Of a stretch of 53,529 nucleotides of DNA, positions 27,129-44,799 are shown in pieces. Both the position numbers and the translations under genes were made by a program. The notes under the pieces were generated by a model, which worked only from the letters and a program-made list of their open reading frames with translations, was not told the origin of the DNA and did no database searches. This DNA is from Candidatus Sysuimicrobiota bacterium. Its GTDB lineage: Bacteria; Sysuimicrobiota; Sysuimicrobiia; Sysuimicrobiales; Sysuimicrobiaceae. Numbering within the stretch: the first letter of the stretch is position 1; every line of letters starts with the position of its first letter. The DNA is taken from positions 1 to 53,529 of the forward strand of contig PSLI01000009.1 in NCBI GenBank assembly GCA_040289515.1. Reading direction: 5' to 3'.

Positions 27129-27764
27129 CTAGCCCTGCCGGGCCTCCAGCTTTTTCTTGATGCGCTTCAGCCGGAAGACATCCTCCCGGGTTCGCTGTTC
27201 CAACACGTCGTTGATGTAGCGGATCTCCGAGCGGATCCGCGGGATCACCACCTGCTCCAGGGCGTTCACGCGGCGGGTGGTTTTCTTGATCTCCTCTCCG
27301 ATCTTCCGCAGCCGCAGCTCCGTGCTGGCCACCTGCAGGATGGCATCCAGCACCTCCTCGAAGGCCTCCTGACTCTCCAGGGTCCGCACGGTGGTGCCCG
27401 TGGGGCTGAGCCCGCGCTCCAGGAAGGACCGCCGGACCCGGTGGCTGCGCACCTCCGGGACCTTGATCCCCCAGATGTTGCGGATCTCCACGTCCACCAG
27501 CACGGGCCGCCGTTCCACGAGGGCCGCCGCCTCCAGGGCCTGGCGGCCATCCACCGCCTTGGCCAGGCTCAGGATCACGTAGGCCTTCTCGGAGATGGCC
27601 ACGAGCCGATCCCGCGCCTGCAGGGCCTGCCGCACCACCTGGAAGAACTCCGCCACCAGGGCGTCCCGCTTGCGCTTCAGCAGGTCCACGCCCTGCTGCG
27701 CCACCCGCAGCTGGTTTTTCCGCTGCAGGAGGTTCATCCGGGTCGGGCTGACGAGCTCCGGCAT
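27129..27764 (-). CDS. atpD: V/A-type ATP synthase subunit D
   Basis: SPTRMNLL, LLKRKRDAL and KTTRRVNALE motifs. Confidence 0.96.
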   Translation of the reverse strand: MPELVSPTRMNLLQRKNQLRVAQQGVDLLKRKRDALVAEFFQVVRQALQARDRLVAISEKAYVILSLAKAVDGRQALEAAALVERRPVLVDVEIRNIWGIKVPEVRSHRVRRSFLERGLSPTGTTVRTLESQEAFEEVLDAILQVASTELRLRKIGEEIKKTTRRVNALEQVVIPRIRSEIRYINDVLEQRTREDVFRLKRIKKKLEARQG

Positions 27765-27800
27765 GGCGCGTGCTCCCTTACCTCTGCCTCCCCAGGGGGA

Positions 27801-29225
27801 CTACCGCCGGGAAAGCCGCTCTTCCTCCGCCCACAGCTGCTCTATCGCCTCGCCGAAGTAGTACTTCTCCACGTGGTCCTGCTTGACCCGCTTCAGCTCC
27901 CCCTTCGGCAGCAGGGAGAGGAGCTTCCAGCCCAGGTTCAGGGTCTCCTCGATGGACCGCTCCGTGTGACGCTGATTGAGGAACTCCTGTTCGAAGGCGT
28001 CCGCGAACCGCAAATACATCCGGTCCCGTTCCGTCAGGGCCTCCTCCCCGATGATGGCCACCAGCCGGCGCAGGTCCACCCCGTTGGCGTACGCGCTGAA
28101 CAGCTGGTCCTTCAGGCCCGCGTGGTCCTCCCGGGTGCGGCCCGGACCGATGCCGTCGTTCATGAGCCGGGACAGGCTGGGCAGGGGGTTGATGGGCGGG
28201 TAGATGCCCTGCCGGTGCAGGGCCCGGCTCAGAACGATCTGCCCCTCCGTGATGTAGCCCGTGAGGTCCGGGATGGGGTGGGTGATGTCGTCGTCCGGCA
28301 TGGTGAGGATAGGCAGCTGCGTGACGGAGCCCTTCCGCCCGTGGATCCGGCCCGCCCGCTCGTAGATGGTAGCCAAGTCCGTGTACATGTAGCCCGGGTA
28401 GCCGCGGCGGCCTGGGATCTCCTCTCGGGCGGCACCGATTTCCCGCAGGCTTTCACAGTAGTTCGTCATGTCCGTGAGGATCACCAGGACCTGCTTGTCC
28501 AGCTCGAAGGCCATGTACTCCGCGGTGGTGAGGGCCAGCCGCGGGGTCATCAGGCGCTCAATGGTAGGGTCGTCCGCCAGGTTGAGGAACACCACGCTGC
28601 GGGACAGGGCCCCCGTGGCCTCGAACTGCTCGATGAAGTACGCGGCCTCTCGCTGGGTGATCCCCATGGCGGCGAACACCACCGCGAACTCCTCCTTCTC
28701 GCCCAGCACCTTGGCCTGCCGGGCGATCTGGGCCGCGATCTCGTTGTGGGGCAGGCCGGCGCCGGAGAAGATGGGCAGCTTCTGGCCCCGCACCAGGGTG
28801 TTCAACCCGTCGATGCTGCTGATGCCGGTCTGGATGAACTCCTGCGGCCGCTGCCGGGCCACGGGGTTGATGGGGGAGCCGATGATGGGCAGGCGCTTGT
28901 CCGGGATGATGGGGGGCAGGCCGTCGATGGGCTCGCCCCGGCCGTTGAACCGCCGGCCGATGATCTCCGGGCTCACCCCGAACCGGGCCACGTCCTCCCG
29001 CAGGCTCACGGAGGTCCGGGCCACGTCCAGGCCCGTGGTCTCCTCGAACACCTGGATCACCGCGTGCTCCCGGGAGACCTCGATCACCTGGCCGCCCCGC
29101 ACGCTACCGTCGGGCAGGTGGATGTTCACGATGGCGCCGTAGGCCAGGTCCTGCGCCCCCTCCACGAACAGCAGGGGTCCGGAGATGTACGAGATGGACT
29201 GGTAGCGCTTGGTGGCCAGTTCCAT
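27801..29225 (-). CDS. atpB: V/A-type ATP synthase subunit B
   Basis: [30 protein letters not shown] and [14 protein letters not shown] motifs. Confidence 0.97.
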
Positions 29226-29244
29226 GGTTCCTCCACCTCCCGGC

Positions 29245-30993
29245 TCAGGCCGTCCCCGCAGGGGCCCGGAACGTTTCCGCCATCCTTCGCAGGAACTCCT
29301 CCGTGTAGACGGGGAAGCGGTCCGCGGGCACCTCCTTCATGCGGGCGATCTCCTGGATCTGCGGTAGGTTGAGGAGCTCGTCCATGGTCATCCCCCGCCG
29401 CAGGGCCGCCGCGGCTTGGTCGTAAAAGCTCAGGATGGCCTTCAGCATCCCGTAGGACTTGACGGGCGGGCAGTAGGCGTCCACCTCGGAGAAGGCGGAC
29501 TGCTGCAGGAAGTCCTCCCGCAGGATCTTGCCCACCTCGATGACCAGGCGCTGGTCGTCCTGCAGGGCATCCGGACCCACCAGCTGCACGATCTCCTGGA
29601 GCTCCGCCTCCCTCTGCAACAGCGCGGAGGCCCGTTCCCGCAGGGTCTCGAAGTCTTCGGGAAGGTTCTGGCGGTACCACTCGTGGAACAGGGGCGTGTA
29701 CAGGCTGTACGAACGCAGCCAGTGGATGGACGGGAAGTGCCGCCGGTTCGCGAGCCCCGCATCGAGGGACCAGAAAGTGCCCACGATGCGCAGGGTGGCC
29801 TGGGTCACCGGCTCTGACAGGTCTCCGCCGGGCGGGGAGACGGCACCGATGACGGTGATGGCGCCCCGGCGCTCCGGACGCCCCAGACACACCGCCCGGC
29901 CCGCCCGCTCGTAGAAGGCCGCCAGGCGGCTGGACAGGTACGGCGGGTAGCCCTCCTCCGCGGGCATCTCCTCCAGCCGGCTGGAGATCTCCCGCATGGC
30001 CTCCGCCCACCGGCTGGTGGAGTCCGCCATGAGGGCCACCTTGTAACCCTGGTCCCGCCAGTACTCCGCCATGGTGATCCCCGTGTACACGCTGGCCTCC
30101 CGGGCCGCCACGGGCATGTTGCTGGTATTGGCGATGATGATGGTGCGCTCCATCAGGGGCCGGCCCGTGCGGGGGTCCTCCAGCTCCGGAAATTCGTCCA
30201 GCACGTGGGTCATCTCATTGCCGCGCTCCCCGCAGCCTACGTAGATGATCACGTCCGCGTCCGCCCACTTGGCCAGGGTTTGCTGCATCACCGTCTTGCC
30301 GCTCCCAAAGGGGCCCGGGATGGCCGCGGTGCCCCCCATGGCCACGGGGAACAGCACGTCGATGACGCGCTGGCCGGTTACCAGAGGTTCCCGGGGGTCC
30401 AGCCGGCGCGCCACAGGCCGCGCCAGCCGCACCGGCCAGGTGTGCAGGAGCCGCAGCTCCCGACCGTCCTCCAGTCGGGCCACCACGCCTGTCACAGCGA
30501 ACTCGCCCTCCCGGATCTCCGCCACCCGCGACGGCCGAGCGTCCGGCGGCACCAGGATCCGGTGCGAGAAGCCGAACTCCTGCACCTCCCCCAACACGTC
30601 CCCCGGACCCACCTCCGCTCCCACGGACACCAGGGGCCGGAACGCCCACCGGCGCTCCCGGTCCAGGGCCGGAGCCACCGCACCCCGCCGGATGAAATCG
30701 CCCTGCTGCGACCGAACTGCCGGCAGCGGCCTCTGGATCCCGTCGAAGATGTTACTCAGCAACCCCGGCCCCAGTTCCACCGCCAGGGGTAGCCCGGTGC
30801 TCTCCACCGGCTCCCCCACCCGCAGCCCGGAGGTGTCCTCGTACACCTGGATGAAGGCGGTGTCCCCGCTGAGCCGGATGATCTCCCCCACCAGGCGTTC
30901 CTCTCCCACTCGGACGATGTCGTACATCCGGGCCCCCCGCATCCCGCGGGCGATCACCGCCGGCCCCGCAATCCTCACGATCTCGCCCTGCAT
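29245..30993 (-). CDS. atpA: V/A-type ATP synthase subunit A
   Basis: GPFGSGKT Walker [22 protein letters not shown] and EMPAEEGYP motifs; GAGGAGG RBS. Confidence 0.97.
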
Positions 30994-31007
30994 GGCCACC
31001 GCCTCCT

Positions 31008-31328
31008 CTAGCGCAGCTTCACGTAGAAGCCGATGTGTTCTTTCACCAGGCGGGCGATGTAGTCCTCGCCCGACTCCAGCTTGGCCCGCGGCGCGGGGAA
31101 GGGCACCAGAACCGGCAGGTCCCGTCCCCGCAGGACCCGGGCCACCTCCTCCTGCACCCCCTCCAGCAGCGCCTCGTTCACTGCCACGAGGCCATAGTCC
31201 CGCTGGACCAGCTCCCGCAGTACACCCACCGCGGCCCGGGGATCCTCCGCCTCGAACACGTCCGCCCCCGCCAGCCGGAACCCCGTGGCGGATTCGGAGT
31301 CCGTAACCACCGCCACCCGGTACGCCAT
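31008..31328 (-). CDS. atpF: V/A-type ATP synthase subunit F
   Basis: [12 protein letters not shown] motif; operon position. Confidence 0.93.
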
Positions 31329-31331
31329 CGC

Positions 31332-32360
31332 CTACACCAGCGCCATCTCCCTGCGGACCAGGTCCCGTGGGATCCCCAGGGCCTTGCTGCGGGCAATGAG
31401 CCGCAGGTTGCGGATCTCGTTGGCCAGCAAGGTTAGGTACCCCACCACCACGTCCACCCCCAGGGGATCGCCCAGGTACAGGGCCGCCATCCGCCGGGTT
31501 GCCTCCTGCTCCAGCCACCGCTCCACCTCTGCGGGCGAAATACCCTCCGGGTGGATGCCGCGGGCGCGCAGCTCCCGCAGACCCACCTCCGCCGTCCTGG
31601 GGTCTGCCAGGTTTCGGAACACGTTCCGGGTGACCACCGCACCGCCTTCCAGGAAGAACCGCTCCCGCTGGTCTGGGGTCAGCTCGGGCACCTGCTGGAC
31701 CTTGAAGGCGGTCTTCACGTTGGTGAAGTCCACCTGGGTACGCACCAGTTCCTTCACCCGGGCCGCGTCGTAGCCGCGGCCCCGCGCCGCCCGCAGGGCC
31801 CAGTCGTAGTACGCGCGGTCCAAAGCCAGCTCCAGGCTCAGCAGGTTGTGGGAATCCTGGTACCCCGGGAGCGAGCTGGCCAGGGCCTCCGCCAAAGGGT
31901 GACCCCAGGTGGCCAGGGTGCTGATCACCGCTGCCACGTCCGGTTGCTGCAGAAGCTCCCGCAACCGGACGTCGGACAACTCCGCGGCCGGGATCAGGGT
32001 GGCTTCCACCGCCTCGGGGGGGTGCCCTGAGTGCTTCCCCCGCAGGACCGCCCGCAGGTTGTGCACGTCCCAATGGAGGAGCAGCACCTGGATAAGGGTG
32101 CGGGGCTTGCCGTCCGCGAAGGACAGCACCCGGCGGGCCGCCTTCTGGAACGCCCGCGACAGGGCCTCGTCCACCGCCCGCAGCCCCTGGTAGCGCGTCA
32201 GCGCCTCCTGCAGCTCCGCCCCGTACGGCGTGTTGACCAGAGCCTGCAGGAAACTGTCCAGGTCCGGAACGCCCAGCAGCTCCTCCAGCCGCCCCGGGGG
32301 CAGCAGCCGCGACCTCATCCCTTTCACCCGGGCGTTGATGTACCCGAAGTCCGCCGGCAC
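31332..32360 (-). CDS. atpC: V/A-type ATP synthase subunit C (d)
   Basis: [17 protein letters not shown] and [10 protein letters not shown] motifs. Confidence 0.93.
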
Positions 32361-32945
32361 CTATCCCTCCCACAGGAGGTCTGCCACCTCCGCCAGCAGC
32401 AGCTGGCGGGCCCGCCGCAGGCGGGAGCCCAGGGTGTTCTCCACCACGAACCGACCATCCTCGCTGCGCACCCTCACCCCTTCCCGCAGGGATGGGTCGA
32501 CCCGCACCTCCACCACGTGCAGACCCAGCTCCCGCGCGGCCGCTTCCACCGCGGATGCGTCCCTTTCCGGACACTCCACCACCACCGGCCCGTTGAAGCC
32601 CTGCGCCGCCTCCCGCAACAGACCCCGCAGGATGCGTGCGTAGCGGGCGGGGTCCTGAAGGATGCGCTCGAGCTCTGCGCCCGCGCGCCGGAACACCTCC
32701 TCCAGCTGCCGGTCCTTGGCCTCCAAGACCATAGAGGCCGCGCGCAGCTGCGCCACTCCCCGGGCCCGGACCCGGGCTGCCTCCACGCTCGCTGCCACGC
32801 GCTGGCGGTGAGTCTCCAGCAGGGCCTGAGCCTCCGCCTGCGCCCGCTGCAACAGCTGCTCCGCCTGCCTCCGCGCCTCGGCCAGCAGGCGCTGCCGCTC
32901 CGCCTCTGCCTCGCGCTCGAGCAGGTCGATCAACTCCGATGCCAT
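32361..32945 (-). CDS. atpE: V/A-type ATP synthase subunit E
   Basis: N-terminal coiled coil; [21 protein letters not shown]. Confidence 0.9.
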
Positions 32946-32956
32946 GAGCGCAGTTG

Positions 32957-33283
32957 CTAGATCCGGCCGATCAGGAAGAAGGCCACCAGGAAGCCAAGGA
33001 TGATCATGGTCTCGGGCAGGGCCAGGAACACCAGCATCAGACCGCCGATTTCTGGCCGCTCCGCCATGGCCCCCGCCGCCGCGGCTCCGATCCGGGACTG
33101 GGCCCACGCGGTACCCAGCGCACCGAACGCCAGCGACAGGGCCGCCGCGATCCCCAGCAGCCCGGCCCGAAGTCCGTCCCCGGCCCGAGGGGCCGCCTCC
33201 GGGGCCTCCGCCGCCAGGGCGGGCAGGCCCACCAGGGCCACCGCCAGGACCGCCAGCACCACCATCCACGCGCGCTTGCTCAT
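32957..33283 (-). CDS. atpK: V/A-type ATP synthase proteolipid subunit K/L (c) with signal-like N-terminal extension
   Basis: [15 protein letters not shown] and ion-binding FLALPET motifs. Confidence 0.92.
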
Positions 33284-33291
33284 TCCCACGA

Positions 33292-35268
33292 TCACCTCCC
33301 TGTCCGTTGGAATGGTCGGTACGGTTGCCCGGTCTCCTCGTGATACTTCACCTTGGTGAAGAACTCGACCCAGTGCAGACGCGCGGGCTGGATCACGTGT
33401 CCCACGATGGTGAACACGAAGAACAGCACCTGGGCCAGGGCCGAGAGAAAGGTCGCCACGACCGTGCCCACCACCCCGCTCAGCCCGAAGGTCTCCGCCA
33501 TGCTGGGACCCAGCTCGTTGGCGGCCGTGGCCAGGGCAGCCGCCGCCAGACCGAAGGCCATGAGTCGGGCGTGGCTGAGCACGTGACCGAAGGCCGTGGC
33601 AGACTCCAAAAACCACATGGGGTTGGCGGCCCGGAAGGCCAGCCCCAGGCCGAAGGCCGCCAGCGCCGCCCACAGGAAGTTCCAGCTCACCGGCACCGCC
33701 GCCGCGGGCAGCAGGCCCGACAGGCCTCCCAGCAACAGCAGCACCCACGTGAGGGTCAGGATCATCACCGTGCTCTCCAGGACCCCCCGCAGGTTCCGGT
33801 GCCGCAGGGACTGCACCAGGTGCCCAGCGAGCCCGCCGTAGATCATCACCATCCCCAACAGGACGATGAGCTGGAAGTACAGATCGCGCTGCGCCCGTAC
33901 CCGGTCGAACAGGGGGTGCACCTGAAACAGCAGCTCCGGCAGGTTCCCGAACACCTCCGCGTACAGGACCCCGAACACCACCACCCACCCGGCGATCACC
34001 CGGACAATCCACGACACCGCCTGCAGGGTCTCCGGGCTCAGGCGCAGGTTCAGCAGGCTCACCTCCAGGGGCAGGCCCTGCCGGGCGCGGTTCCGCAGCC
34101 ACCACCCGAGGGCAAAGAACAAGATTCCGTAGCCCACGTCCCCGATCACCAGGCCCACGAACAGGGGGAAGGTCACCGCCAGAAGGGGGCTGGGATCCCA
34201 CGTGCCGTACCGCGGGGGCCGGAAGATGGCCAGCAGCAGCTGAAACGGCTGCACGGGTGGAGGGTTCTCCAGGGCTACGGGCACCTGGGCCGCCTCCTCG
34301 TGGTCGTGCGCGTCCACGGGGCTGTCCACCACCACCACCTCATCCCCGAACCGCTGCCGCAGGGTCGCCCGCAGCCGCGGGACCTCCCGGGTGGGAACCC
34401 ATCCGTGGACGATGAAGGTGTACCGGGACTGAGCGAAGCTGGGCAGCACCTCCAGCTTGGCCAGCTCGTCCCGCAGCCGCGCCTCCACCGCCTGCACGGT
34501 GCCCCGGGACGTGCGGCTGAGGGCCTCCAGCTGCCGCTGACAGTCGGAGATGACCTGCGGCAGCTGCTCCCGCAGCCGCGCCATCTCCTGCACCGCCTCC
34601 GCAGCGGGTCGGTCCGCGAACCGGCTGGGCAGCCGCAGCTCCGTGATCCCCGCCCGCTGCAAGAAGGAACGTACCGCCTCCCCATCCCGGCGGTGGAAGG
34701 CCACCACCACACCCAGGGTGTTGTCGTCGATCTGGTGGGAGACGACCTCTACGCGGCCACCCGTGATGCGGTCCAGCTCCCGGTGCAGCGCGGCCAAGGC
34801 AGGGGCCGCCTTTCCCCGCAGGAGGAAGCCGTAGGTCTCAAAGTGCCGGCTGCCCCGCAGGGCCCCCAGGAGGGGCGAGAGGACCCGTATTGCGCCCTCG
34901 TAGGACCGCACCAGCTCCAGTTCCTCCTGTGCTTCCGCCCGGCGCCGCACGAGCTCCCGCGCCTCGCGCTCCACGGGTTCCAAAATTGCTTCCAGCTCCT
35001 CCAGGCTCTGCTCGTGCAGGTCCGGGATCACCACAGGTCCTACCCGCGGCAACAGCTCCAGCAGCCCCCTGGTGCGCGCCAGCAGGCTCTCCAGGCGCCG
35101 TTGGAGGGCCTCCTCCTCGCTGCCGGGTTCCACGGGCCGTAACTGCAGAGCTTCCTCCGCCTCCACGCGGTCCACGTGTACCACGCCCAACCGCTGGACC
35201 GCGTCCGTCACCTCCCCCAGCAGCCGCTTGGGCCCCAGGAGGATGACCCGGCTCATCTCCACGATCAT
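33292..35268 (-). CDS. atpI: V/A-type ATP synthase subunit I (a)
   Basis: GWVP, GDVGYG, VLSHARLMAFGLA and RLHWVEFFTK motifs. Confidence 0.95.
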   Translation of the reverse strand: MIVEMSRVILLGPKRLLGEVTDAVQRLGVVHVDRVEAEEALQLRPVEPGSEEEALQRRLESLLARTRGLLELLPRVGPVVIPDLHEQSLEELEAILEPVEREARELVRRRAEAQEELELVRSYEGAIRVLSPLLGALRGSRHFETYGFLLRGKAAPALAALHRELDRITGGRVEVVSHQIDDNTLGVVVAFHRRDGEAVRSFLQRAGITELRLPSRFADRPAAEAVQEMARLREQLPQVISDCQRQLEALSRTSRGTVQAVEARLRDELAKLEVLPSFAQSRYTFIVHGWVPTREVPRLRATLRQRFGDEVVVVDSPVDAHDHEEAAQVPVALENPPPVQPFQLLLAIFRPPRYGTWDPSPLLAVTFPLFVGLVIGDVGYGILFFALGWWLRNRARQGLPLEVSLLNLRLSPETLQAVSWIVRVIAGWVVVFGVLYAEVFGNLPELLFQVHPLFDRVRAQRDLYFQLIVLLGMVMIYGGLAGHLVQSLRHRNLRGVLESTVMILTLTWVLLLLGGLSGLLPAAAVPVSWNFLWAALAAFGLGLAFRAANPMWFLESATAFGHVLSHARLMAFGLAAAALATAANELGPSMAETFGLSGVVGTVVATFLSALAQVLFFVFTIVGHVIQPARLHWVEFFTKVKYHEETGQPYRPFQRTGR

Positions 35269-35609
35269 GGCTCCAGACCTTGCAGCACCGCGGCCACCAC
35301 GCGGCGCACCGCGGCTTCCAGGTTCTTTTGGGCAGCCTGCCGGACGCGCTCCGCCTGCTCCCGGGCACGCCGGAGCTCTTCCTCCTCTGTCTTCCTGGCT
35401 TCCGCCTCCGCGCGCTCCTTTGCTTCCCGCTCCAGGCGTGCGGCCTCCTCCTGCGCCTGGGCTCGGATCCGGGCGGCCTGCGCCTCGGCTTCCTTCACCA
35501 GACGCTCCGCGTCCGCGCGGGCCTCCGCCAGCCGGCGCTCCAGCTCCGCCTCTTTTTGCGCCAGCAGCTGCAGCACGTTCCGTCGCTGGCGTTCGTGGCC
35601 CTCAGCCAT
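35265..35609 (-). CDS. V/A-type ATP synthase subunit G/H (peripheral stalk)
   Basis: Ala/Glu/Arg-rich coiled coil; first gene of the operon, overlapping the subunit I start. Confidence 0.85.
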   Translation of the reverse strand: MAEGHERQRRNVLQLLAQKEAELERRLAEARADAERLVKEAEAQAARIRAQAQEEAARLEREAKERAEAEARKTEEEELRRAREQAERVRQAAQKNLEAAVRRVVAAVLQGLEP

Positions 35610-35792: not shown

Positions 35793-37244
35793 CTAGCCAC
35801 CCAGCAGGCGCCGGGCCAGCTCCACGAAGCCCACCACGGGCTGCGGGTACAGGCCCACCGCCACAGTCCCCACCAGGGCCACTCCCAGGCCCACCCGCAG
35901 CGCCGGCGACACCGACAAGGGGGTCCTCTCGGGCGGAGGCATGAGGTACAGGGCCCGCAGCACGCCCACGTAGTAGTACAGGGAGACCACGCTGTTGGCC
36001 ACCGCCAGGGCTGCCAGCCACAGCAGCCCCGCGTCCACCGCGGCTGCGAAGAGGTAGAACTTTCCGAAGAAGCCCGCCGTGGGCGGGATCCCCGTCAGGG
36101 ACAGCATGAACACCACCATGGCCGCCGCCACCCACGGGGCCCGCTGGCTCAGCCCCGCGTGGTCGGGGATCTCGTCGGACCCGGTAGCTTCGGAAGCCAC
36201 CAGGGCCACGAAGAAGGCTCCCAGGTTCATGAACAGGTAGGCCAGCAGGTAGTACAAAAGGCCGGGCAGGGCCCAGGCGGACTTCCATGCAGCCAGAGCC
36301 ATGAGGACATAGCCCGCGTGGGCGATGCTGGAATAGGCCAGCATCCGTTTGAGGTTGCGCTGCAACAGGGCGAGGAGGTTGCCCACGGTCATGGTGAGGG
36401 CGCTAAGTCCCGCCAGCAGCAGGGGCCACTGCACCTGCTCCAGGGGAATTCCCACACTCAGGGTGCGCACCAGGGCCGCGAAGCCCGCGGCCTTGGGGCC
36501 CACGGACAGGAAGGCGGTGATGGGTGTGGGTGCGCCCTCGTACACGTCCGGGGTCCACTGGTGGAAGGGCACCATGGACACCTTAAATCCGAATCCGGCC
36601 AGGGCCATGCCCACCGCCAGGTACGCCGCCCCGCCCGCGCGCCCCAGGCGCGTGGCGACGTCGTACAGGCTCGTGCTGCCCGCCAGTCCGTACAGCAGGG
36701 AGAACCCGTAGGCCATAACACCTGTGGTGGCCGCCCCGTACAGGAAGTACTTCACGCCCGCCTCGTTGCTCTTGGGATCCCTCTTCAAGAAGCCCGCCAG
36801 CAGGTACGAACTCAAGGACACGAACTCGATGCTGAGCAGCAACAGGATGAGGTCCGAGGCGCTGGCCATGAGCAGCAGGCCCACGCCCGCGAACAGCAAC
36901 AAGGCGAAGGCTTCCCCCACGTGCGGGGTGCGGCCGGGGAAGTAGTCCAGGCTCACCAGGGCCACCAGCGCCACCGCACCCAGCGCCACCAGCTTCACGT
37001 AGAGGGCGAAGGGGTCCACCGTGTACGTGTCCGCGAAGATGCGCACTCCCCCGCTCCGGAGAGCCTGCAGCTCCGCCAGGAGCTGCCCGCAGGCGGCTGC
37101 GGCCGGTACTGCCGCCGCCACCGCGAACCACCCCAGCTGCCGCCTGCGGTCAGGGGCGGTCATCAGGTCCGCCAGCAGCAGGGCCACCGCGGCGCCCGTC
37201 AGCACCAGCTCGGGGACCAGCCAGCGCAGGTCCTGCCAGTTCAT
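35793..37244 (-). CDS. nuoN: NADH-quinone oxidoreductase subunit N
   Basis: EAGVKYF, FKVSMVPFHQWTPDVYEGAPTP and KRMLAYSSIAHAGY motifs. Confidence 0.95.
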   Translation of the reverse strand: MNWQDLRWLVPELVLTGAAVALLLADLMTAPDRRRQLGWFAVAAAVPAAAACGQLLAELQALRSGGVRIFADTYTVDPFALYVKLVALGAVALVALVSLDYFPGRTPHVGEAFALLLFAGVGLLLMASASDLILLLLSIEFVSLSSYLLAGFLKRDPKSNEAGVKYFLYGAATTGVMAYGFSLLYGLAGSTSLYDVATRLGRAGGAAYLAVGMALAGFGFKVSMVPFHQWTPDVYEGAPTPITAFLSVGPKAAGFAALVRTLSVGIPLEQVQWPLLLAGLSALTMTVGNLLALLQRNLKRMLAYSSIAHAGYVLMALAAWKSAWALPGLLYYLLAYLFMNLGAFFVALVASEATGSDEIPDHAGLSQRAPWVAAAMVVFMLSLTGIPPTAGFFGKFYLFAAAVDAGLLWLAALAVANSVVSLYYYVGVLRALYLMPPPERTPLSVSPALRVGLGVALVGTVAVGLYPQPVVGFVELARRLLGG

Positions 37245-38749
37245 CGCAGCATCGCCACCAGCTGGCTGCTGGTCAGGTTGATGACGTCCAGCAGGGGCTT
37301 GGGGTACACCCCGAACACCACCATGAGCACCACCAGAGGCACCAGCACCCACGCCTCCCGGCGGTCCAGGTCGGGCAGGTTCGCCCACCGCGGGTTGGTG
37401 GGGCCCAGGAAGATGCGCTGGATGGTCCACAGGAAGAAGGCCGCGGTGATCACAACGCCCAGGGCCGCCAGGGCGGTGAACACGGGGATGATACTGAAGG
37501 AACCCACGAAGATCAGGAACTCCGCCACGAAGCCCATGAGGCCCGGCAGGCCCAGGGAGGCGAACATGGCCGTGATGGACACCGCCCCGTACTTGGGCAG
37601 CACCGCCCAGAGTCCCCCGAAGTCGTCCACCCCCCGGGTGTGCGTACGGTCGTCGTACAGCACCCCCACCACCAGGAACAGGGCCCCCGTGATGACCCCG
37701 TGGGCCAGCATCTCCATGGTGGCCCCGTTCAGGGCGGTGGCAGCCGCGTCCGCCAGCTCCGGCCGGCCGTAGGCGTGAGCCGCGGCGGCCACCGCCAGCA
37801 TCACGTACCCCATGTGGTTGACGGAGGAGTACGCCACCAGCTTCTTAAGGTCCGTCTGGGCCATGGCCACGAGGGCCCCGTAGAGGACCCCCACCACCGC
37901 CAGGGCCGCGATGAGCAGGGCGTGCTGATGGAACACCTCCGGGAACAACGGCAGGCTGAAGCGCACGAACCCGTACGTGCCCAGCTTCAGCAGAATGGCG
38001 GCCAGGATCACGCTGCCCGCGGTGGGGGCCTCCACGTGGGCGTCCGGCAACCAGGTGTGGAAGGGCCACATGGGCACCTTGATGGCGAAGGACAGGAAGA
38101 AGCCCCAGAAGGCCAGCTGGGCCAGCAGCCCCGTGCCCGACAGGGGCCGCTGCCGCACGATTTCCGGGACGTCGAAGGTGCGCTGGCCTGGGGGCAGGTG
38201 GAAGTACAACAGCAGGATCCCCAGCAGCATGGCCAGGGAGCCCACCAGGGTGTACAGGAAGAACTTGATGGCCGCGTACTCCCGCCGGGGCCCACCCCAG
38301 ATCCCGATCAGGAAGTACATGGGGACCAGGGTCAGCTCCCAGAACACGTAGAACAGGAAAAAGTCCAGGGCGAAGAAGACACCCAACATCCCGGTTTCCA
38401 GGAGCAAAAACAGCAGGTTGTACTCCTTCACTCGGTGCCCCTCCCGGAAGGAGTACAGGACCGACAGCACGGTGAGCAGGGTGGTGAGCAGGACCAGCAC
38501 CAGGCTGAGCCCGTCCACCCCCACCTTGTACTGGATACCCACCGCGGGGATCCACGCGGCCTGCTCTATCCGTTGCATCTCCCGCCGCCCCAGCTCGAAG
38601 CGGGGCAGGATGAGCAGGGAGGCCACGAAGGTGGCCAGGGCAAAGCCCAGGCTGACCCGACGAATACGGTCCGCGTCCTCCCGGGGCAAGAACAGCAGCA
38701 CCAAGGCGCCCAGCAGGGGCAAAAAGAGGGTGATCGTCAGGATGGGCAT
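37241..38749 (-). CDS. nuoM: NADH-quinone oxidoreductase subunit M
   Basis: GVDGLS, FWELTLVPMY, KVPMWPFHTWLPDAHVEAP and LKKLVAYSSVNHMG motifs. Confidence 0.95.
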   Translation of the reverse strand: MPILTITLFLPLLGALVLLFLPREDADRIRRVSLGFALATFVASLLILPRFELGRREMQRIEQAAWIPAVGIQYKVGVDGLSLVLVLLTTLLTVLSVLYSFREGHRVKEYNLLFLLLETGMLGVFFALDFFLFYVFWELTLVPMYFLIGIWGGPRREYAAIKFFLYTLVGSLAMLLGILLLYFHLPPGQRTFDVPEIVRQRPLSGTGLLAQLAFWGFFLSFAIKVPMWPFHTWLPDAHVEAPTAGSVILAAILLKLGTYGFVRFSLPLFPEVFHQHALLIAALAVVGVLYGALVAMAQTDLKKLVAYSSVNHMGYVMLAVAAAAHAYGRPELADAAATALNGATMEMLAHGVITGALFLVVGVLYDDRTHTRGVDDFGGLWAVLPKYGAVSITAMFASLGLPGLMGFVAEFLIFVGSFSIIPVFTALAALGVVITAAFFLWTIQRIFLGPTNPRWANLPDLDRREAWVLVPLVVLMVVFGVYPKPLLDVINLTSSQLVAMLR

Positions 38750-38792
38750 GCTCGGACTCCCTGATTCCAGATTCCCCGCCGCAAAGGACACC

Positions 38793-40859
38793 TCACAGTC
38801 TCCACAGGCTCACCACCACCAGGACCGCCAGGCCCGCAGCGGCCACCAGGATGTAGTTGTACGCGCGGCCGGTCTGCAGGGGCTGCAGCAGCAGGCCTAG
38901 CCCCCGGGTGGCCCAGCCCACCAGGTTCACCAGACCATCCACCACGTACGTGTCCACCAGACGGTGCAGGCGGCTGGTGAGCACCGTGGTCCAGCCCACC
39001 AGGTTCACCAGACCATCCACCACGTGCCGGTCGAACCACCACAGCCCCGCCGCCAGTGCGAGCCCGCCGCGGACGAACACCCAGCCGTACAGAGTGTCGA
39101 TGTACATGCGGTTGCGCAGGAACCCGTACGCCGGACCCGCCCATGCCCGCACCTGGTCGCTGCGCACCCACTCGAGGCCGTACACCACCCAGGCCACCGC
39201 CATCCCCGCCAGGACGACCCCGAGGGAGCGCAAAGCCAGAGGCCACGAGAAGCTGGGCGCCTGAATGCCCGCCGCCTCGAAGCCCTTGAACTTCAGGAAG
39301 TGATGGATCCAGGACCCGCCCTCCGGCCCCGTACCCGGGACAGCCACGAACCCCGCCCCAAAGGCGAGCAGGGCCAGCACCACCAGGGGGACGGTCATCA
39401 CGGGCGGGCTCTCGTGGGGCTCTGCGGAGCCGTGGTAGCCGTGGGGGCGGTACAGCCCCGCCCGCGCGTAGTCCTCCGGCAGCCACGGATCGGGCTCCGG
39501 GTGCGCGGGTCCCCGATACGGACCGAAGAAGGCATAGGCCACCAGCCGGGACATGTACAGGGCCGTCAGGAATGCCGCCGCGGTGAGCACGGTGTACACC
39601 GCCGGCTCGTGGTGGTATGCCTCCAGCAGGATCTCGTCCTTGCTCCAGAAGCCCGAGAAGGGGAATACGCCCGCCAGGGCCAGGAAGCCCGCCAAGAAGG
39701 TCCCGAAGGTGACAGGCATGGGGCGCCACAGGCCACCCATCTCCTTGATGTTGTTGGTGTGCACCGCGTGGATCACGCTGCCTGCAGCCAAAAACAGCAG
39801 GGCCTTGAAGAAGGCGTGGGTCAACAGGTGGAACAGCCCCGCGGTGTACCCCAGCACCCCCAGCCCGGCCATCATGAAGCCCAGCTGGCTAATGGTGGAG
39901 TACGCCAGGATGCGCTTGATGTCGTCCTGGGCCACCGCCATCAGGGCCGCCAGCAGCGCCGTCACCGTGCCCACCCAGGCCACCACGGTGAGGGCCTCGT
40001 GGTGCGGGGTGTAGAAGAACAGGGGGTAGGCGCGCCCCACCAGGTACACGCCCGCGGCCACCATGGTGGCCGCATGGATCAGGGCGGACACGGGCGTGGG
40101 GCCCTCCATGGCATCCGGCAGCCACACGTGCAGCGGGAACTGTCCGCTCTTGCCGATGGGCCCGCCGAACACCAGCAGGGCGGTGAGGGTCACCAGGGGT
40201 ACCTCCCACGGGCCCAGGCGCACCACCGCCGCAGCCTCCTTGGCCCCGCGCTGTACGGCCTCGAAGACCGCGTGGTAGTCCACCGTGCCGAACTGCCAGA
40301 ACAGGGCCATGATGCCGATCAGCATCAGGGTGTCCCCGACCCGGGTGGTGAGGAAGGCCTTCATCTGGGCCATGTTGGCGGATCGCCGCCGGAAGTAGAA
40401 GCCGATGAGCAGGTACGAGCACAGGCCGATCACTTCCCACCCGATGAGCATCAGGAGGAAGCTGTTGGCCAGCACCATGGTCAGCATGCCCGCGCAGAAC
40501 AAGGAAAGGAAGGCGAAGAAGCGGGGGGTGTAGGGGTCCCCCCCCATGTAGCCCACCGAGTACACGAAGATGAGGCCGCCCACCAGGGTGATCATGGCCA
40601 CCGTGATGGCCGAAAGATGGTCTACCGTGTAGCCCACGGTGATGACCCGCTGCCCACCCACGGCCCAGGCAGCGCGCCACACGAAGCTCTCCGCACCCAG
40701 GACCTGCTCCACGAACACCCCCCAAGCCACCAGGGCCGACAGGGCCATGGCCCCGATGGCCACGAAGGGAGCCCGGTCCCCCAGGGCGCGGCCCCGGAAG
40801 ATCAGCACCGCGTAGCTGGCCAAGGGAAACAGGGGGATCAGCCAAGCAAGCCGTGCCAC
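38793..40859 (-). CDS. nuoL: NADH-quinone oxidoreductase subunit L
   Basis: WEVIGLCSYLLIGF, KSGQFPLHVWLPDAMEGPTPVSALIHAATMV and HAFFKALLFL motifs. Confidence 0.96.
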   Translation of the reverse strand: MARLAWLIPLFPLASYAVLIFRGRALGDRAPFVAIGAMALSALVAWGVFVEQVLGAESFVWRAAWAVGGQRVITVGYTVDHLSAITVAMITLVGGLIFVYSVGYMGGDPYTPRFFAFLSLFCAGMLTMVLANSFLLMLIGWEVIGLCSYLLIGFYFRRRSANMAQMKAFLTTRVGDTLMLIGIMALFWQFGTVDYHAVFEAVQRGAKEAAAVVRLGPWEVPLVTLTALLVFGGPIGKSGQFPLHVWLPDAMEGPTPVSALIHAATMVAAGVYLVGRAYPLFFYTPHHEALTVVAWVGTVTALLAALMAVAQDDIKRILAYSTISQLGFMMAGLGVLGYTAGLFHLLTHAFFKALLFLAAGSVIHAVHTNNIKEMGGLWRPMPVTFGTFLAGFLALAGVFPFSGFWSKDEILLEAYHHEPAVYTVLTAAAFLTALYMSRLVAYAFFGPYRGPAHPEPDPWLPEDYARAGLYRPHGYHGSAEPHESPPVMTVPLVVLALLAFGAGFVAVPGTGPEGGSWIHHFLKFKGFEAAGIQAPSFSWPLALRSLGVVLAGMAVAWVVYGLEWVRSDQVRAWAGPAYGFLRNRMYIDTLYGWVFVRGGLALAAGLWWFDRHVVDGLVNLVGWTTVLTSRLHRLVDTYVVDGLVNLVGWATRGLGLLLQPLQTGRAYNYILVAAAGLAVLVVVSLWRL
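38913..39025. repeat. Exact 35-bp direct repeat with 78-bp period inside nuoL
   Basis: CCAGCCCACCAGGTTCACCAGACCATCCACCACGT at 38913-38947 and 38991-39025. Confidence 0.95.
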
Positions 40860-40912: not shown

Positions 40913-41221
40913 CTACCCCTTCAGCAGGTCCACCTGGTCCACGTTCACCGTCTCCAGGTGGCGGTAGGCGTTGATCACCAGGGCGAGGCCCACCACGGCC
41001 TCGCAGGCAGCCAGGGTGATCACCACCAGGGCGGCGATGTGGCCGCGCACGAAGGTGGGGTCCACAAAGCGCGTGAAGGCCACGAAGTTCACGTTGGCCG
41101 CGTTCAGCATGAGCTCGATGCCCATGAGGATGGCCACCGCGTTCCGCCGGGTAAGGACGCCGAACAGACCCAGCCCGAACAGAAGGCTGGAGAGTACCAG
41201 GTAGTGAGCGAGCCCGATCAT
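40913..41221 (-). CDS. nuoK: NADH-quinone oxidoreductase subunit K
   Basis: RRNAVAILMGIELMLNAAN and AACEAVVGLAL motifs. Confidence 0.95.
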   Translation of the reverse strand: MIGLAHYLVLSSLLFGLGLFGVLTRRNAVAILMGIELMLNAANVNFVAFTRFVDPTFVRGHIAALVVITLAACEAVVGLALVINAYRHLETVNVDQVDLLKG

Positions 41222-41712
41222 TCCTCCCTCCGGGCGATGACGATGGCCCCCACCAGGGAAGCTAGGATGACCAGGGAGATGACCTCGAAGGCCAGAACGT
41301 AGGGCAGAAGAAAGCTCCGCCCCACGGCACCCGGGTTGTAGGCGGGCATGGGCCCCGCGGGCGGACCCCACGGAACCCGCAGGAGGACCCCCCACAGAAG
41401 CAGCACCAGCGCCCCGCACACCACGAAAGCCAGGGGGACCTGCTCGTTCCGCTGGCGCACCCGTAGGCCCGTGGCCCCCTCCGTAAGGAGGATGACGAAC
41501 AGGATGAGCACGGTGATGGCGCCCACGTAGATCAAGATCTGGATGGCGGTGACGAACTCCGCGTGCAGCAGCACGTACAGCCCGGCCACCCCCAGGAGGG
41601 TCGGGACCAGGGACACCGCCGCGTGCACCAGGTTCCGCGAGAGGACCACGAGTCCTCCGCCGGCCAGCACCATAGCAGCCAGGGTGTAGAAGGCCAGGGC
41701 TTCCGCGTTCAC
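41218..41712 (-). CDS. nuoJ: NADH-quinone oxidoreductase subunit J
   Basis: NLVHAA, AEFVTAIQILIYVGAITVL and FEVISLVIL motifs. Confidence 0.94.
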   Translation of the reverse strand: MNAEALAFYTLAAMVLAGGGLVVLSRNLVHAAVSLVPTLLGVAGLYVLLHAEFVTAIQILIYVGAITVLILFVILLTEGATGLRVRQRNEQVPLAFVVCGALVLLLWGVLLRVPWGPPAGPMPAYNPGAVGRSFLLPYVLAFEVISLVILASLVGAIVIARREE

Positions 41713-42725
41713 CGCACGACCACCATCAGCAGGCCCGCCACCAGAAGGTTCACCATACTGACGGGCAGGAGGACCTTCCACGACAGCCCCAGAAGCTGGT
41801 CAATGCGGAACCGCGGGTAGGTCCAGCGCACCCACATGAGGAAGAACACCACCGCGTACGTCTTCAGGACGAACCACACGAGCCCGTTCACCACGGGCCC
41901 CGCCCCGGGCAGTTGAAAGGGGCCCTTCCAGCCGCCCAGAAACAGGGTGGTGAACAAAGCAGAGCTGGCCAGCAAGGACCCGTACTCCCCCAGCTGGAAC
42001 AGAGCGAACCGCATGGGCGTGTACTCGGAGAAGTACCCCGCCACCAGCTCCGCTTCCGCCTCGGGGAGGTCGAAGGGGATCCGGTTAGCCTCCGCAGTGG
42101 CTGCCACCAAAAACACCACGGCCGCCACCACCACCGAGGGGTACAGGTACGCGGGGTACGGCTGGGCCTCCACGATCCGTACCGTGGACAGACTGCCCGT
42201 GATGGTGGCCACCAGGATCAGGGAAAAGCCCAGGGGCAGCTCGTAGGACACCATCTGCGCGGCGGACCGTAATCCCCCCAGCAGGGAATACTTGTTGTTG
42301 GACGCCCACCCGCCGGCCAGGATGCCGATCACCGTGAGGCTGCTTACCGCGGCGAAGTACACGACCCCCACATTCAGGTCCCGCACCACCCAGCCGGGGG
42401 CGAAGGGGATCACCACCCAGTCCAGGAGGGCAGCCACCGCCACCAGGATGGGCGCCACGGAGAACAACACCACGTCCGCCCGGTACGGGGCGATGTTTTC
42501 CTTATAAAGGAGCTTCAGGGTGTCCGCCACCGTTTGCAGCAGGCCGTGGGGCCCCACGTGCTTGGGCCCGACGCGGGCCTGGATCCAGGCGCTGATCTTC
42601 CGTTCCGCCAGCACCAGAAACAGCGGTCCGCCCACCGCCAGGAAAGTAAACACCACGGCGGCCAGAACCACCATGCGGACCAGCTCCACCTGCCACAGGG
42701 CGCCGAACAGCCCTCCTACACCCAC
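41709..42725 (-). CDS. nuoH: NADH-quinone oxidoreductase subunit H
   Basis: ERKISAWIQARVGP, GWASNNKYSLLGGLR, PFDLPEAEAEL and PRFRIDQL motifs; start uncertain (GTG 42725 overlaps the nuoA end). Confidence 0.94.
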   Translation of the reverse strand: MGVGGLFGALWQVELVRMVVLAAVVFTFLAVGGPLFLVLAERKISAWIQARVGPKHVGPHGLLQTVADTLKLLYKENIAPYRADVVLFSVAPILVAVAALLDWVVIPFAPGWVVRDLNVGVVYFAAVSSLTVIGILAGGWASNNKYSLLGGLRSAAQMVSYELPLGFSLILVATITGSLSTVRIVEAQPYPAYLYPSVVVAAVVFLVAATAEANRIPFDLPEAEAELVAGYFSEYTPMRFALFQLGEYGSLLASSALFTTLFLGGWKGPFQLPGAGPVVNGLVWFVLKTYAVVFFLMWVRWTYPRFRIDQLLGLSWKVLLPVSMVNLLVAGLLMVVVR

Positions 42726-43072
42726 TCCAGAGCACCCTTCCCCCACGCGTAGGCCAGGCCGACCCCCAGAACTCCCAGGAAGATCAGCATCTCCACGAAG
42801 GCGAACCCACCCAGCTCGCGGAGGACAACGGCCCACGGGTACATGTAGATCACCTCGATGTCGAATAGCAAAAACGCCAGGCCAAAGAGGTAGTACCGCA
42901 CATGAAACTGGCTCCAAGCTTCCCCGAAGGGGATGATGCCCGACTCGTACGCCACGCGCTTCTGCGGGTACTGGCTGCGGGGGGCCAGCAACCACACCAG
43001 CCCCAGGGGAAGAGCCGCCATCCCCGCTCCCACGAGCGCGAAGACCGCCACGTACGCCCAGTCCAGCGGCAC
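42716..43072 (-). CDS. nuoA: NADH-quinone oxidoreductase subunit A
   Basis: YESG, RYYLFGLAFLLFDIE and YAWGKGALEW motifs. Confidence 0.95.
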   Translation of the reverse strand: MPLDWAYVAVFALVGAGMAALPLGLVWLLAPRSQYPQKRVAYESGIIPFGEAWSQFHVRYYLFGLAFLLFDIEVIYMYPWAVVLRELGGFAFVEMLIFLGVLGVGLAYAWGKGALEWV

Positions 43073-43269: not shown

Positions 43270-43579
43270 GCTGGCCCGCAGTCCCGGCTTCGCGTCGGGC
43301 CGGAGGTCCGTTCACCCCTGGGGCGGTGCGGGTGCGCAGGGCGTCGGAGGAGGCGCCGGGTATCCCGGAGGTCCTCGCGGAGCTCGAAGAGCCGAGGGTC
43401 ATTGGCCGGCTTCGGGCAGCTGGGCACCCATCACGACCGCCTCCACGGGTGGGGACCTGTTCACGTCTCGCCACCCCTCCCAAAGTCGCGCGTACGGTCG
43501 TGTCCTGCGGGCCGGCGTGCTGCACGCGATCCCGTTCGGATCCTGGGTTTGAGCGCCTGCCGGTGATGGTACCAGGCCC

Positions 43580-44210
43580 TCAGCGGTGCCTCGAGACGCC
43601 GGCGGCAAACGCCGCCAGCTCCACGACCCCCCTTCCAGCCTGCTCTTCTCGGCGGCCAGCGCCATCAGGTGGCTGTCGATGGATTCCCGCATCGAGGTCT
43701 CCGGGGCCCCCTTGCCCCGCCGGGCCGCCCGCACCCGGCGCACAAAGACTTCCATAAGCTCTCGTCTCCGCTGCCGTGCAAGAGTCCCGACACGGGGCGA
43801 AACGTCTGGCGCCCGGCTGGGCGGAAGGTGCACAACCCAACCTCTCCCCTGCTCCAGGTGGTCCCGGATCTCGCCGTTGGTGCCCATGATCTTAAGGGTG
43901 CGGGTGTTCTCCTCGGTGAAAGCCGGGGGGGTGGACGCGGCTGTGACGCCGTTTTCGAACTCCAGGGCCACCACCTGGTGGCCGACCGCGTCGTTGTCGA
44001 AAAAAAGCACCGCCCGTAAGGCCCGTCGCGCGGGGCTTTGATCCGCCCTTCCGCCGAGGGATCCTCGGTGATGACCGACACCGGCCAGCCGTCCCAGCCG
44101 GCCAGAATCTGCGTGTAGAACCGGGGGGCGGAGAACGCGCACCGCTCTTCGGCGGGGCAGGCGTCGGTGCAGCGGGGCGGGGCGCCCTCGGGGGCGTTTT
44201 CCTGCCGCGC
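43580..44210 (-). pseudogene. Frameshifted C-terminal half of a Gfo/Idh/MocA oxidoreductase
   Basis: ENAPEGAPPRCTDACP..GPYGRC in one frame; DNDAVGHQVVALEFENGVTA..RTLKIMGTNGEI and SHLMALAAEKSRL in another. Confidence 0.75.
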
Positions 44211-44211
44211 A

Positions 44212-44421
44212 ACCGTCCGCCTCAAGGGCGGGCGGGAGGCCGTACGTGGCAGCCAGGAAGAACCGGTCGCCCTCCAGGAGCGAGACCCAAGCCGTCTTTG
44301 CGTCCAGGAAGCGCGCCAGGGCCGGCAGAACACCCTCCAGCATGGGTTCCAACTCCACGTGGCGGTTCACCAGGTCGGCGACCGCTACGAGAACCTCGAG
44401 ACGCGGAGCGCTATCCCCCAT
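44212..44421 (-). pseudogene. N-terminal GAF-domain fragment of a sensor protein
   Basis: Strong RBS plus ATG; LVAVADLVNRHVELEPMLEGVL..TAWVSLL..FFLAATYGLPPALEADG, then an abrupt junction into the oxidoreductase relic. Confidence 0.55.
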
Positions 44422-44799
44422 CCTCCCTCCCACGCGCGAGCTTCCCCATTTCCTCATCCCGCACAGCGCACGTCCCGGCCAACCAGCACCCGCAGGGGTC
44501 CGTTAAACTCTGTGCTCGAGGGCATCAATCGGTGCAGGAACCGGCTTCGCTAACCAGAGCTCCAGCGCGGCGTAGGACACGCTGCCGCGTGTCCTATACA
44601 GGGTGAGGATGGATGGCAGCCAGCCGGGCCAAGCGTGCGGGACCCAGCGCCCTGCGGGTGGGCCCGACCAGGCTCCGGGCGGATGCTGTCGTCCACCCGT
44701 GCCAGACGGGGTGGTGGCGTGTCATGGTCCCCTTAAGGATCTGCCGGCGCGGGATCGTCGGAGCGGCTCCGACATTGGGGATCTGACCCCAATTTCCGG

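What the first reader, a model, noticed from the sequence alone, without database searches (positions are those of the whole stretch)
38850..39120. NuoL amphipathic helix carries an exact 26-aa duplication, the hallmark of extra-pump ('2M') complex I, yet the operon has only one NuoM and one NuoN
Seen: VVDGLVNLVGW occurs twice exactly 26 aa apart, encoded by an identical 35-bp repeat (78-bp period) that includes synonymous sites, so the duplication or homogenisation looks recent. The stretch from the YID motif to QTG is about 74 aa, roughly 26 more than I recall for canonical NuoL/Nqo12. Known: complex I variants with an additional antiporter-like subunit were reported (Chadwick and colleagues) to have an insertion of about 26 aa in this lateral helix, which spans the extra subunit. 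Inference: the membrane arm may hold a fourth pump (a second copy of the same NuoM or NuoN, or one encoded elsewhere), or this may be an intermediate stage in which the helix lengthened before or after a pump gene gain or loss.
Basis: partly seen in the sequence, partly recalled or inferred. Interest (0 to 1): 0.85.

Follow-up and report, generated by a model that had tools for sequence, protein, structure and literature searches.

The report
NuoL helix ruler, one nuoM gene
The side helix that straps together the proton pumps of this second complex I is one 26-residue module longer than normal although only one nuoM pump gene is present; the same mismatch (up to three modules) is common in many phyla, and the single gene likely fills two pump slots, which would add a pump without a new gene.

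Summary
The 26-residue duplication in NuoL is real, but it is old, not recent. 30 of 39 relatives in the order carry it beside one nuoM and one nuoN. In a GTDB pattern sample, 65 of 67 resolved operons were single-nuoM and 2 were 2M. It therefore does not mark a 2M operon. The mismatch is in print for one family (PMC9040806) and was seen before by this scan on other DNA, unexplained.

New here:
(1) Helices with one, two or three conserved modules all occur with a single nuoM, some in genomes with only three antiporter-like genes.
(2) With the long helix, nuoM rarely overlaps the nuoL stop (7 of 153 against 78 of 214). It returns to overlap in three nested lineages that lost the module; the nuoK-nuoL junction shows no such shift.
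(3) Some true 2M operons nest among long-helix single-M ones.

Best reading (0.55): the helix acts as a ruler and one nuoM gene supplies two copies (L-M-M-N). This is inferred. Only 7 independent pairs exist (p about 0.25), three-module operons lack strong start signals, and no structure exists. Rival (0.35): an ordinary three-pump arm accommodates the extra module.

The parts
38793..40859 (-). nuoL of the second complex I, 688 aa
   Evidence: NCBIfam NF005141 and TIGR01974 above cut-off; AF2 model pLDDT 90, NuoL fold
38886..39110 (-). lateral helix HL, residues 584-658, predicted as one unbroken 75-residue helix
   Evidence: pLDDT falls to 61-76 towards the far end
38955..39032 (-). module 1, residues 610-635, at the normal distance (22) from the Y-x-D-x-x-Y anchor
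38877..38954 (-). module 2, residues 636-661, at the normal distance (26) from QTG and TM16
38913..39025 (-). the two exact 35-nt copies (39025-38991 and 38947-38913), likely recent gene conversion on an old duplication
38799..38864 (-). last transmembrane helix (TM16), residues 666-687
38750..38792 (-). 43-nt nuoL-nuoM spacer with a Shine-Dalgarno-like hexamer at 38762-38757, 7 nt before the ATG
   Evidence: start region less folded than those of nuoL and nuoN
37241..38749 (-). single nuoM, 502 aa
   Evidence: TIGR01972 above cut-off
35793..37244 (-). single nuoN, 483 aa, overlapping the nuoM stop by 4 nt
   Evidence: TIGR01770 above cut-off
40913..43072 (-). nuoA, nuoH, nuoJ, nuoK; no nuoB, C, D, E, F, G or I in this operon
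   Evidence: nuoB-D-I-C lie on contig C48:23291-26231
43241..43269 (-). sigma-70-like promoter upstream of nuoA, 11 of 12 matches
   Evidence: consensus match only

Best explanation
NuoL here carries two conserved copies of a 26-residue helix module beside a single nuoM gene, and each module likely docks on one NuoM, so the one gene would supply two subunits and give an L-M-M-N arm with four antiporter-like pumps. Shown: the duplication, its age and spread, the single nuoM, the 1/2/3-module ladder and the gene-junction pattern. Inferred: that the module is the NuoM docking site (by position, and from recalled E. coli D563 work that I could not read); that NuoM stacks head to tail on itself; that nuoM is translated at about twice the rate of its neighbours; that the enzyme is completed by the nuoB-D-I-C genes on C48 and moves one extra proton per turnover, with a donor other than NADH.
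For: (1) Lateral helix length scales with the number of antiporter-like subunits in MBH, MBS, Mrp and complex I (PMC8165549 passage). 26 residues at 1.5 A each is about one subunit width (recalled). (2) Both copies are kept. In 78 two-module tails not selected by motif, the core Asp is present in 77 and 78 and the Asn in 74 and 75; in 203 one-module tails the counts are 195 and 132. (3) The two copies stay alike with one nuoM (9.1 of 15 positions) but have diverged in 4 Chloroflexota operons with two different nuoM genes (3.2 of 15; one clade). (4) Nine tails have three modules, from three lineages. Six with the full operon visible read A to N with one M and one N. In five of these nine genomes the first look found only three antiporter-like genes. 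(5) nuoM overlaps the nuoL stop in 7 of 153 two-module and 78 of 214 one-module operons; in sets not chosen by motif, 1 of 44 and 35 of 127. The nuoK-nuoL control gives 8 of 45 and 15 of 65. (6) Lineages nested in the long-helix clade that lost the module show overlap: family f4 9 of 9 against 4 of 31 in its sisters, a Bacillota clade 4 of 6, L414 1 of 1. (7) In 21 within-genome pairs the long-helix nuoM has the stronger Shine-Dalgarno in 15, the weaker in 5, with 1 tie (p 0.008, kin not independent). (8) The AF2 monomer gives a straight helix with no hairpin.
Against: No solved structure with the extension was found and there are no expression data. The NuoM tree holds only 7 independent long/short pairs: 2.8 go the predicted way and 0.0 the other, median p 0.25. 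M-N overlap is also rarer in long-helix operons (30 of 137 against 90 of 194), so part of the signal may be general spacing, although M-N shows no direction in the pairs (1.1 against 1.1). Three-module operons do not show stronger starts: 2 of 9 overlap and 3 of 7 Coriobacteriia have weak Shine-Dalgarno scores. Start-region folding separates M from N (p 1e-4, uncorrected) but not M from L (p 0.45). NuoM is not more constrained in long-helix families than in f4 (M/mean(L,N) 0.52, 0.70, 0.76 against 0.74). Unequal crossing-over gives 26-residue steps by itself, and gene conversion can keep the copies alike. 39 of 50 sampled long-helix genomes have at least one other nuoM-like match. A monomer model says little about the helix path in the complex.
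Confidence: 0.55

Rival explanations
1. The arm is an ordinary L-M-N. The extra module is accommodated: it bulges along the membrane surface, or docks on NuoN and moves TM16 towards J/K/A, and is kept for stability or for binding another partner. It is a pre-adaptation or remnant, as Yu et al. 2022 proposed.
For: One gene for each subunit in 65 of 67 resolved operons. Repeated loss in nested lineages (9 changes on the tree) shows the module is dispensable over time. The rate test is flat. Three-module operons have weak start signals. Recombination explains the fixed period.
Against: Both or all three modules keep the consensus better than single modules do (mean motif score 28-33 against 20). 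It does not explain why nuoM leaves and regains stop-start overlap with the module while K-L does not. Three modules would need 52 spare residues.
Confidence: 0.35
2. The second slot is filled in trans by the NuoM of the canonical operon or by an MrpD.
For: G000 has a full canonical nuo operon on C37 and an Mrp operon on C1. 39 of 50 and 5 of 5 long-helix genomes have a further nuoM-like match.
Against: No orphan nuoM in G000. 10 of 50 sampled genomes have one nuoM match only, and several two- and three-module genomes show just three antiporter-like candidates. These are mostly MAGs, so absence is not certain.
Confidence: 0.08
3. Assembly artefact or neutral recent duplication.
For: The exact 35-nt repeat is longer than in any relative. 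Reads could not be checked.
Against: Same insertion, same register, in 30 of 39 relatives down to about 51% NuoL identity. The flanks of the two copies differ.
Confidence: 0.02

Closest known systems
2M complex I (Chadwick, Hemp, Fischer, Orphan 2018, ISME J 12:2668). Not held; known only through passages of PMC9040806, PMC6606698 and PMC7117926
   Same: NuoL helix lengthened by about 26 residues. No nuoEFG with the module. Split layout with nuoBCDI apart from the membrane genes, as described for Chloroflexi 2M. In the NuoM tree the first M of four Chloroflexota 2M operons falls in the same broad clade as the window's M.
   Different: Only one nuoM gene. nuoC and nuoD are not fused. The two modules are near-identical rather than diverged.
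Complex_I_1 and Complex_I_2 of Ca. Manganitrophaceae (Yu et al. 2022, PMC9040806; passages read; Fig. S2 not seen)
   Same: 26-residue HL insertion in NuoL of clusters without an extra pump gene.
   Different: Those are described as nuoA-N in order and read as able to take extra subunits or as being in transition. Here the cluster is split and lacks EFG, and the state is shown to be old and widespread.
Canonical L-M-N complex I (E. coli 3RKO, T. thermophilus 4HE8, cyanobacterial NdhF1 6HUM; the paralogue on C37)
   Same: Same fold (TM-score 0.75-0.79 for these) and invariant charged residues in NuoM.
   Different: One module only.
MBH, MBS and Mrp lateral helices (PMC8165549, passages)
   Same: Helix length matches the number of antiporter-like subunits spanned.
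   Different: There each spanned subunit has its own gene (recalled).

Membership tests
2M complex I | about 26-residue insertion in NuoL helix HL | tested here: met
2M complex I | second nuoM gene in the cluster | tested here: not met
   one nuoM in the window and in 39 of 39 relatives with the junction visible; no orphan in G000 (96.7% complete)
2M complex I | four antiporter-like subunits in the assembled arm | not testable with these tools
   needs a structure or native mass
2M complex I (Chloroflexi type) | nuoBCDI separate from the membrane operon | tested here: met
   C48 nuoB-D-I-C; its NuoD orthologue found in 38 of 41 genomes
2M complex I (Chloroflexi type) | fused nuoCD | tested here: not met
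   separate genes, order B-D-I-C
11-subunit complex I-like enzyme | A, B, C, D, H, I, J, K, L, M, N present, no dedicated E, F, G | tested here: met
   second copies of B, C, D, I but no second E or F; a weak G-like hit lies elsewhere on C37. That the two loci form one enzyme is inferred
canonical L-M-N complex I | one-module helix, anchor to QTG about 50-53 residues | tested here: not met
   76 residues
NuoL family | NCBIfam cut-off and fold | tested here: met

The most novel reading that the evidence does not exclude
NuoL's lateral helix is a modular ruler that sets how many copies of one NuoM protein are built into the arm. One, two or three 26-residue modules give three, four or five antiporter-like pumps from the same eleven genes. 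Extra-pump complex I is then common across more than a dozen phyla and invisible to gene counting, and some two-gene 2M operons are later specialisations of a gene already used twice.
Probability: 0.45. Interest if true: 0.9.

Novelty: new variant of a known kind. Interest (0 to 1): 0.68.

Why it matters
The H+/2e- ratio of complex I is usually read from the gene list. If one nuoM gene can be used two or three times, many 11-subunit enzymes would pump more than assumed, which changes energy budgets for ferredoxin-linked and reverse electron transport. It would offer a simple route to the repeated origin of 2M enzymes. It would also give a natural series (one, two, three modules) for testing how pumping is coupled along the arm and what the lateral helix does. 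Cultured organisms with the two-module helix exist (titles of L094, L097, L166, L192), so the claim can be tested directly. If false, the result still shows that the insertion is not a marker of an extra pump.

Tried and rejected
Complex prediction of two NuoM copies with a 113-row alignment: no answer, score 0.00, not evidence either way. Sequencing runs: none was listed, so reads and expression were not checked. Rate test of M against L and N: not discriminating. Charged axis residues of NuoM: no difference between helix classes that separates the models. A comparison of NuoM interface faces with those of NuoL and NuoN was not done and remains open. Chadwick 2018 and Zhu and Vik 2015 are not held, so the docking role of the motif is recalled, not read. 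Paper searches for a one-gene-two-copies reading listed nothing that states it; I read only listings for most hits, and subscription journals are missing. An idea that nuoM and nuoN are fused in f4 was dropped: they are separate genes. Recent duplication and orphan pump gene were rejected. Rows dropped before counts: L115, L259, L386 (broken or mis-called tails) and L349-L351 (divergent long helix). Relabelled by eye: L317, L318, L275, L072; L365, L368. L121 was mis-called three-module and is two-module. The module table had an off-by-one error, corrected.

Full report
Observation. The finding lies in nuoL (38793-40859, minus strand, 688 aa). The 11-residue word occurs at residues 613 and 639. 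The DNA has a 35-nt exact repeat at period 78 within a 47-nt repeat at 91%. The Y-x-D-x-x-Y anchor to QTG distance is 76, against 50-53 in most one-module NuoLs measured. The alignment to solved NdhF1 shifts by 26 across the repeat. An AF2 model from a 64-row alignment has a NuoL fold and one unbroken helix from 584 to 658, then TM16. It is a monomer model with pLDDT 61-76 at the far end.

Genomic setting. The window operon is nuoA-H-J-K-L-M-N only. The genome also holds a full 14-gene nuo operon on C37 with a one-module NuoL, an Mrp operon on C1, and a separate nuoB-D-I-C cluster on C48. There is no second nuoE or nuoF and no orphan nuoM. The C48 NuoD has a close orthologue in 38 of 41 genomes, the window's own included. 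I infer a split 11-subunit second complex I. A split layout is described for Chloroflexi 2M enzymes (PMC7117926 passage). The nearest titled record in my loci is L116, 'Bacterium HR32', with the same operon and a near-identical tail. PMC11962464 (passages) lists a family HRBIN32 in phylum CSP1-3, also named Sysuimicrobiota (PMC11604079 passages). The lineage is inferred from that.

Age. In 40 relatives of the order, the orthologous operon's NuoL tail was visible in 39. Thirty have two modules (families f1, f2, f3, f5, f7) and all 9 of f4 have one; every one has a single M and N. The period is 26 in all 31 two-module sequences, the window's included. The canonical operon has one module in 37 of 37 fetched (3 relatives not fetched). 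The duplication is therefore old and not an assembly error. The exact DNA identity is special to this genome: 11 of 11 shared codons are identical, chance about 0.004 from local codon use, against 2-10 of 8-12 in relatives. That fits recent gene conversion.

Spread. All 80 lie in NuoL tails: 65 are followed by one M then N, 2 by two M, 9 are truncated and 4 show no N. Record titles include Acidobacteriota, Bacteroidota, Ignavibacteria, Chlorobiaceae, Planctomycetota, Myxococcales, Deltaproteobacteria, Anaerolineae, Armatimonadota, Bacillota, Coriobacteriia, Zixibacteria, NC10, Omnitrophota, KSB1, Calditrichota, Riflebacteria and Bipolaricaulota. The pattern favours twin modules that stayed alike, so it under-counts 2M operons with diverged modules. 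Searches by NuoM similarity, blind to the helix, also returned many long-helix single-M operons: 44 two-module, 8 three-module and 127 one-module junctions.

What is known. Yu et al. 2022 (PMC9040806, passages) report the 26-residue insertion in 2M-type subunits and also in NuoL of single-M clusters of Ca. Manganitrophaceae. They read these as able to take extra subunits or as in transition. Chadwick 2018 is not held. The scan's own notes list the mismatch in at least five other genomes, mostly as unexplained. I therefore tested the option that one gene fills two slots.

Test 1, are both modules under selection? In 78 two-module tails not chosen by motif, the core positions are kept in both copies (first Asp 75 and 78, second Asp 77 and 78, Asn 74 and 75), with mean motif scores 31 and 33. 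In 203 one-module tails the counts are 184, 195 and 132, mean score 20. The copies resemble each other (9.1 of 15 within a protein, 7.5 across groups). In four Chloroflexota operons with two different nuoM genes they have diverged (3.2 of 15), but these are one clade. The two 2M operons found by the pattern keep alike modules, as the pattern demands.

Test 2, a ladder. Nine tails carry three modules: seven Coriobacteriia-class loci, L395 (Caldisericales) and L355, with periods 26/26 in eight and 27/27 in one. Six with the full operon visible read A to N with one M and one N; L501 shows K-L-M-N and L500 is cut inside M. For G219, G222, G234, G237 and G094 the first look found only three antiporter-like candidates in the genome. 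Of 158 two-motif tails 154 have period 26, but about half were selected at that spacing. Unequal crossing-over would give such steps without any function.

Test 3, the gene junction. Stop-start overlaps couple translation and are enriched in heteromeric complexes, and about 20 nt of spacer almost abolishes coupling (PMC10666635 passages). A subunit needed twice should escape coupling (inference). In the order, nuoM is set off from nuoL in 26 of 28 long-helix operons and starts with ATG in 27, with mean Shine-Dalgarno energies of -8 to -11. In f4 it overlaps by 4 nt in 9 of 9, starts with GTG in 8, and scores -5.9. Over all loci, overlap occurs in 7 of 153 two-module and 78 of 214 one-module operons, while K-L gives 8 of 45 and 15 of 65. 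In 21 within-genome pairs the long-helix nuoM has the stronger site in 15, the weaker in 5, and the longer spacer in 17 against 4.

Against test 3: M-N overlap is also rarer with the long helix (30 of 137 against 90 of 194). Only 7 independent pairs exist; L-M uncoupling goes the predicted way in 2.8 and the other way in 0.0 (median p 0.25), and M-N splits 1.1 to 1.1. Three-module operons show no stronger signal (2 of 9 overlap; three score -4.6). Start-region folding favours M over N more in long-helix operons (101 of 145 against 104 of 194) but not M over L. Start sites were picked by script, and Shine-Dalgarno scores mean little in Bacteroidota (recalled).

Test 4, the tree. A FastTree of 374 NuoM (midpoint root; a smaller version) has 9 changes of helix type. 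One-module lineages nest inside long-helix groups (f4, a Bacillota clade, L414), so losses are likely there. The first M of four Chloroflexota 2M operons nests among long-helix single-M sequences (SH 95 for the enclosing clade, weak inside), and both M of L137 group with long-helix single-M sequences (SH 98). Against a general rule, the second Chloroflexota M falls far away among one-module sequences, and the archaeal 2M operon L075 sits among one-module Thermoplasmatota. No clade test was run.

Test 5, rates and residues. NuoM is not more constrained in long-helix families than in f4. The charged axis and the Lys equivalent to E. coli NuoM K173 are invariant in 129 of 129 long-helix M, with one gap at the TM12 Glu, and nearly so in short ones; the residue labels are recalled.

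Trans supply. 39 of 50 sampled long-helix genomes have two or more nuoM-like matches, 10 have one and 1 has none at E 1e-50 (50 of 119 loci submitted). Five further genomes, four of them single chromosomes, each have two. Borrowing is possible in G000 but cannot be general unless the single-match assemblies are all incomplete.

Verdict. The feature is real, old and common, and it is not a 2M operon by gene content. The most economical reading is that the helix measures out NuoM copies made from one gene (0.55). An L-M-N arm that tolerates the extra module remains a strong rival (0.35). The mismatch itself is known; the ladder to three modules and the junction pattern were not found in the paper searches or in this scan's notes. 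Interest 0.68; new variant of a known kind.

Noticed in passing
L407-L411, L415, L416 (Coriobacteriia class search), L395, L355: NuoL helices with three conserved modules and one nuoM; L416 may hold a degenerate fourth module upstream.
   Followed up: partly
G000:C48:23291-26231 (L003): nuoB-D-I-C in an unusual order, directly after a murA-like gene, apart from the membrane operon.
   Followed up: partly
L276, L279 (G114, G101) with L380, L381: These two Chloroflexota genomes have a true L-M-M-N operon and also a single-M operon whose NuoL has a long, diverged helix.
   Followed up: no
L349-L351: Antiporter subunits of a different subfamily with a roughly 27-residue helix insertion that lacks the first motif, beside one M and one N.
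   Followed up: no
L100, L102, L130, L150: Long-helix nuoL and nuoM with no nuoN within 8 kb downstream.
   Followed up: no
G042 (L114, L231, L397): In this closed chromosome the second nuoL, nuoM and nuoN lie at three separate places.
   Followed up: no
family f2 loci such as L044, L057, L060: NuoH of the second complex spans about 1150 nt against about 930-960 in other families, suggesting an insertion of some 60 residues.
   Followed up: no
window 27129-35609 (-): A V/A-type ATPase operon follows nuoN after about 180 nt on the same strand (read from translations; not checked against a family library).
   Followed up: no
window 43399-44457 (-): 352-codon ORF upstream of nuoA with no NCBIfam or Pfam match; possibly a mosaic of gene remnants.
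   Followed up: partly
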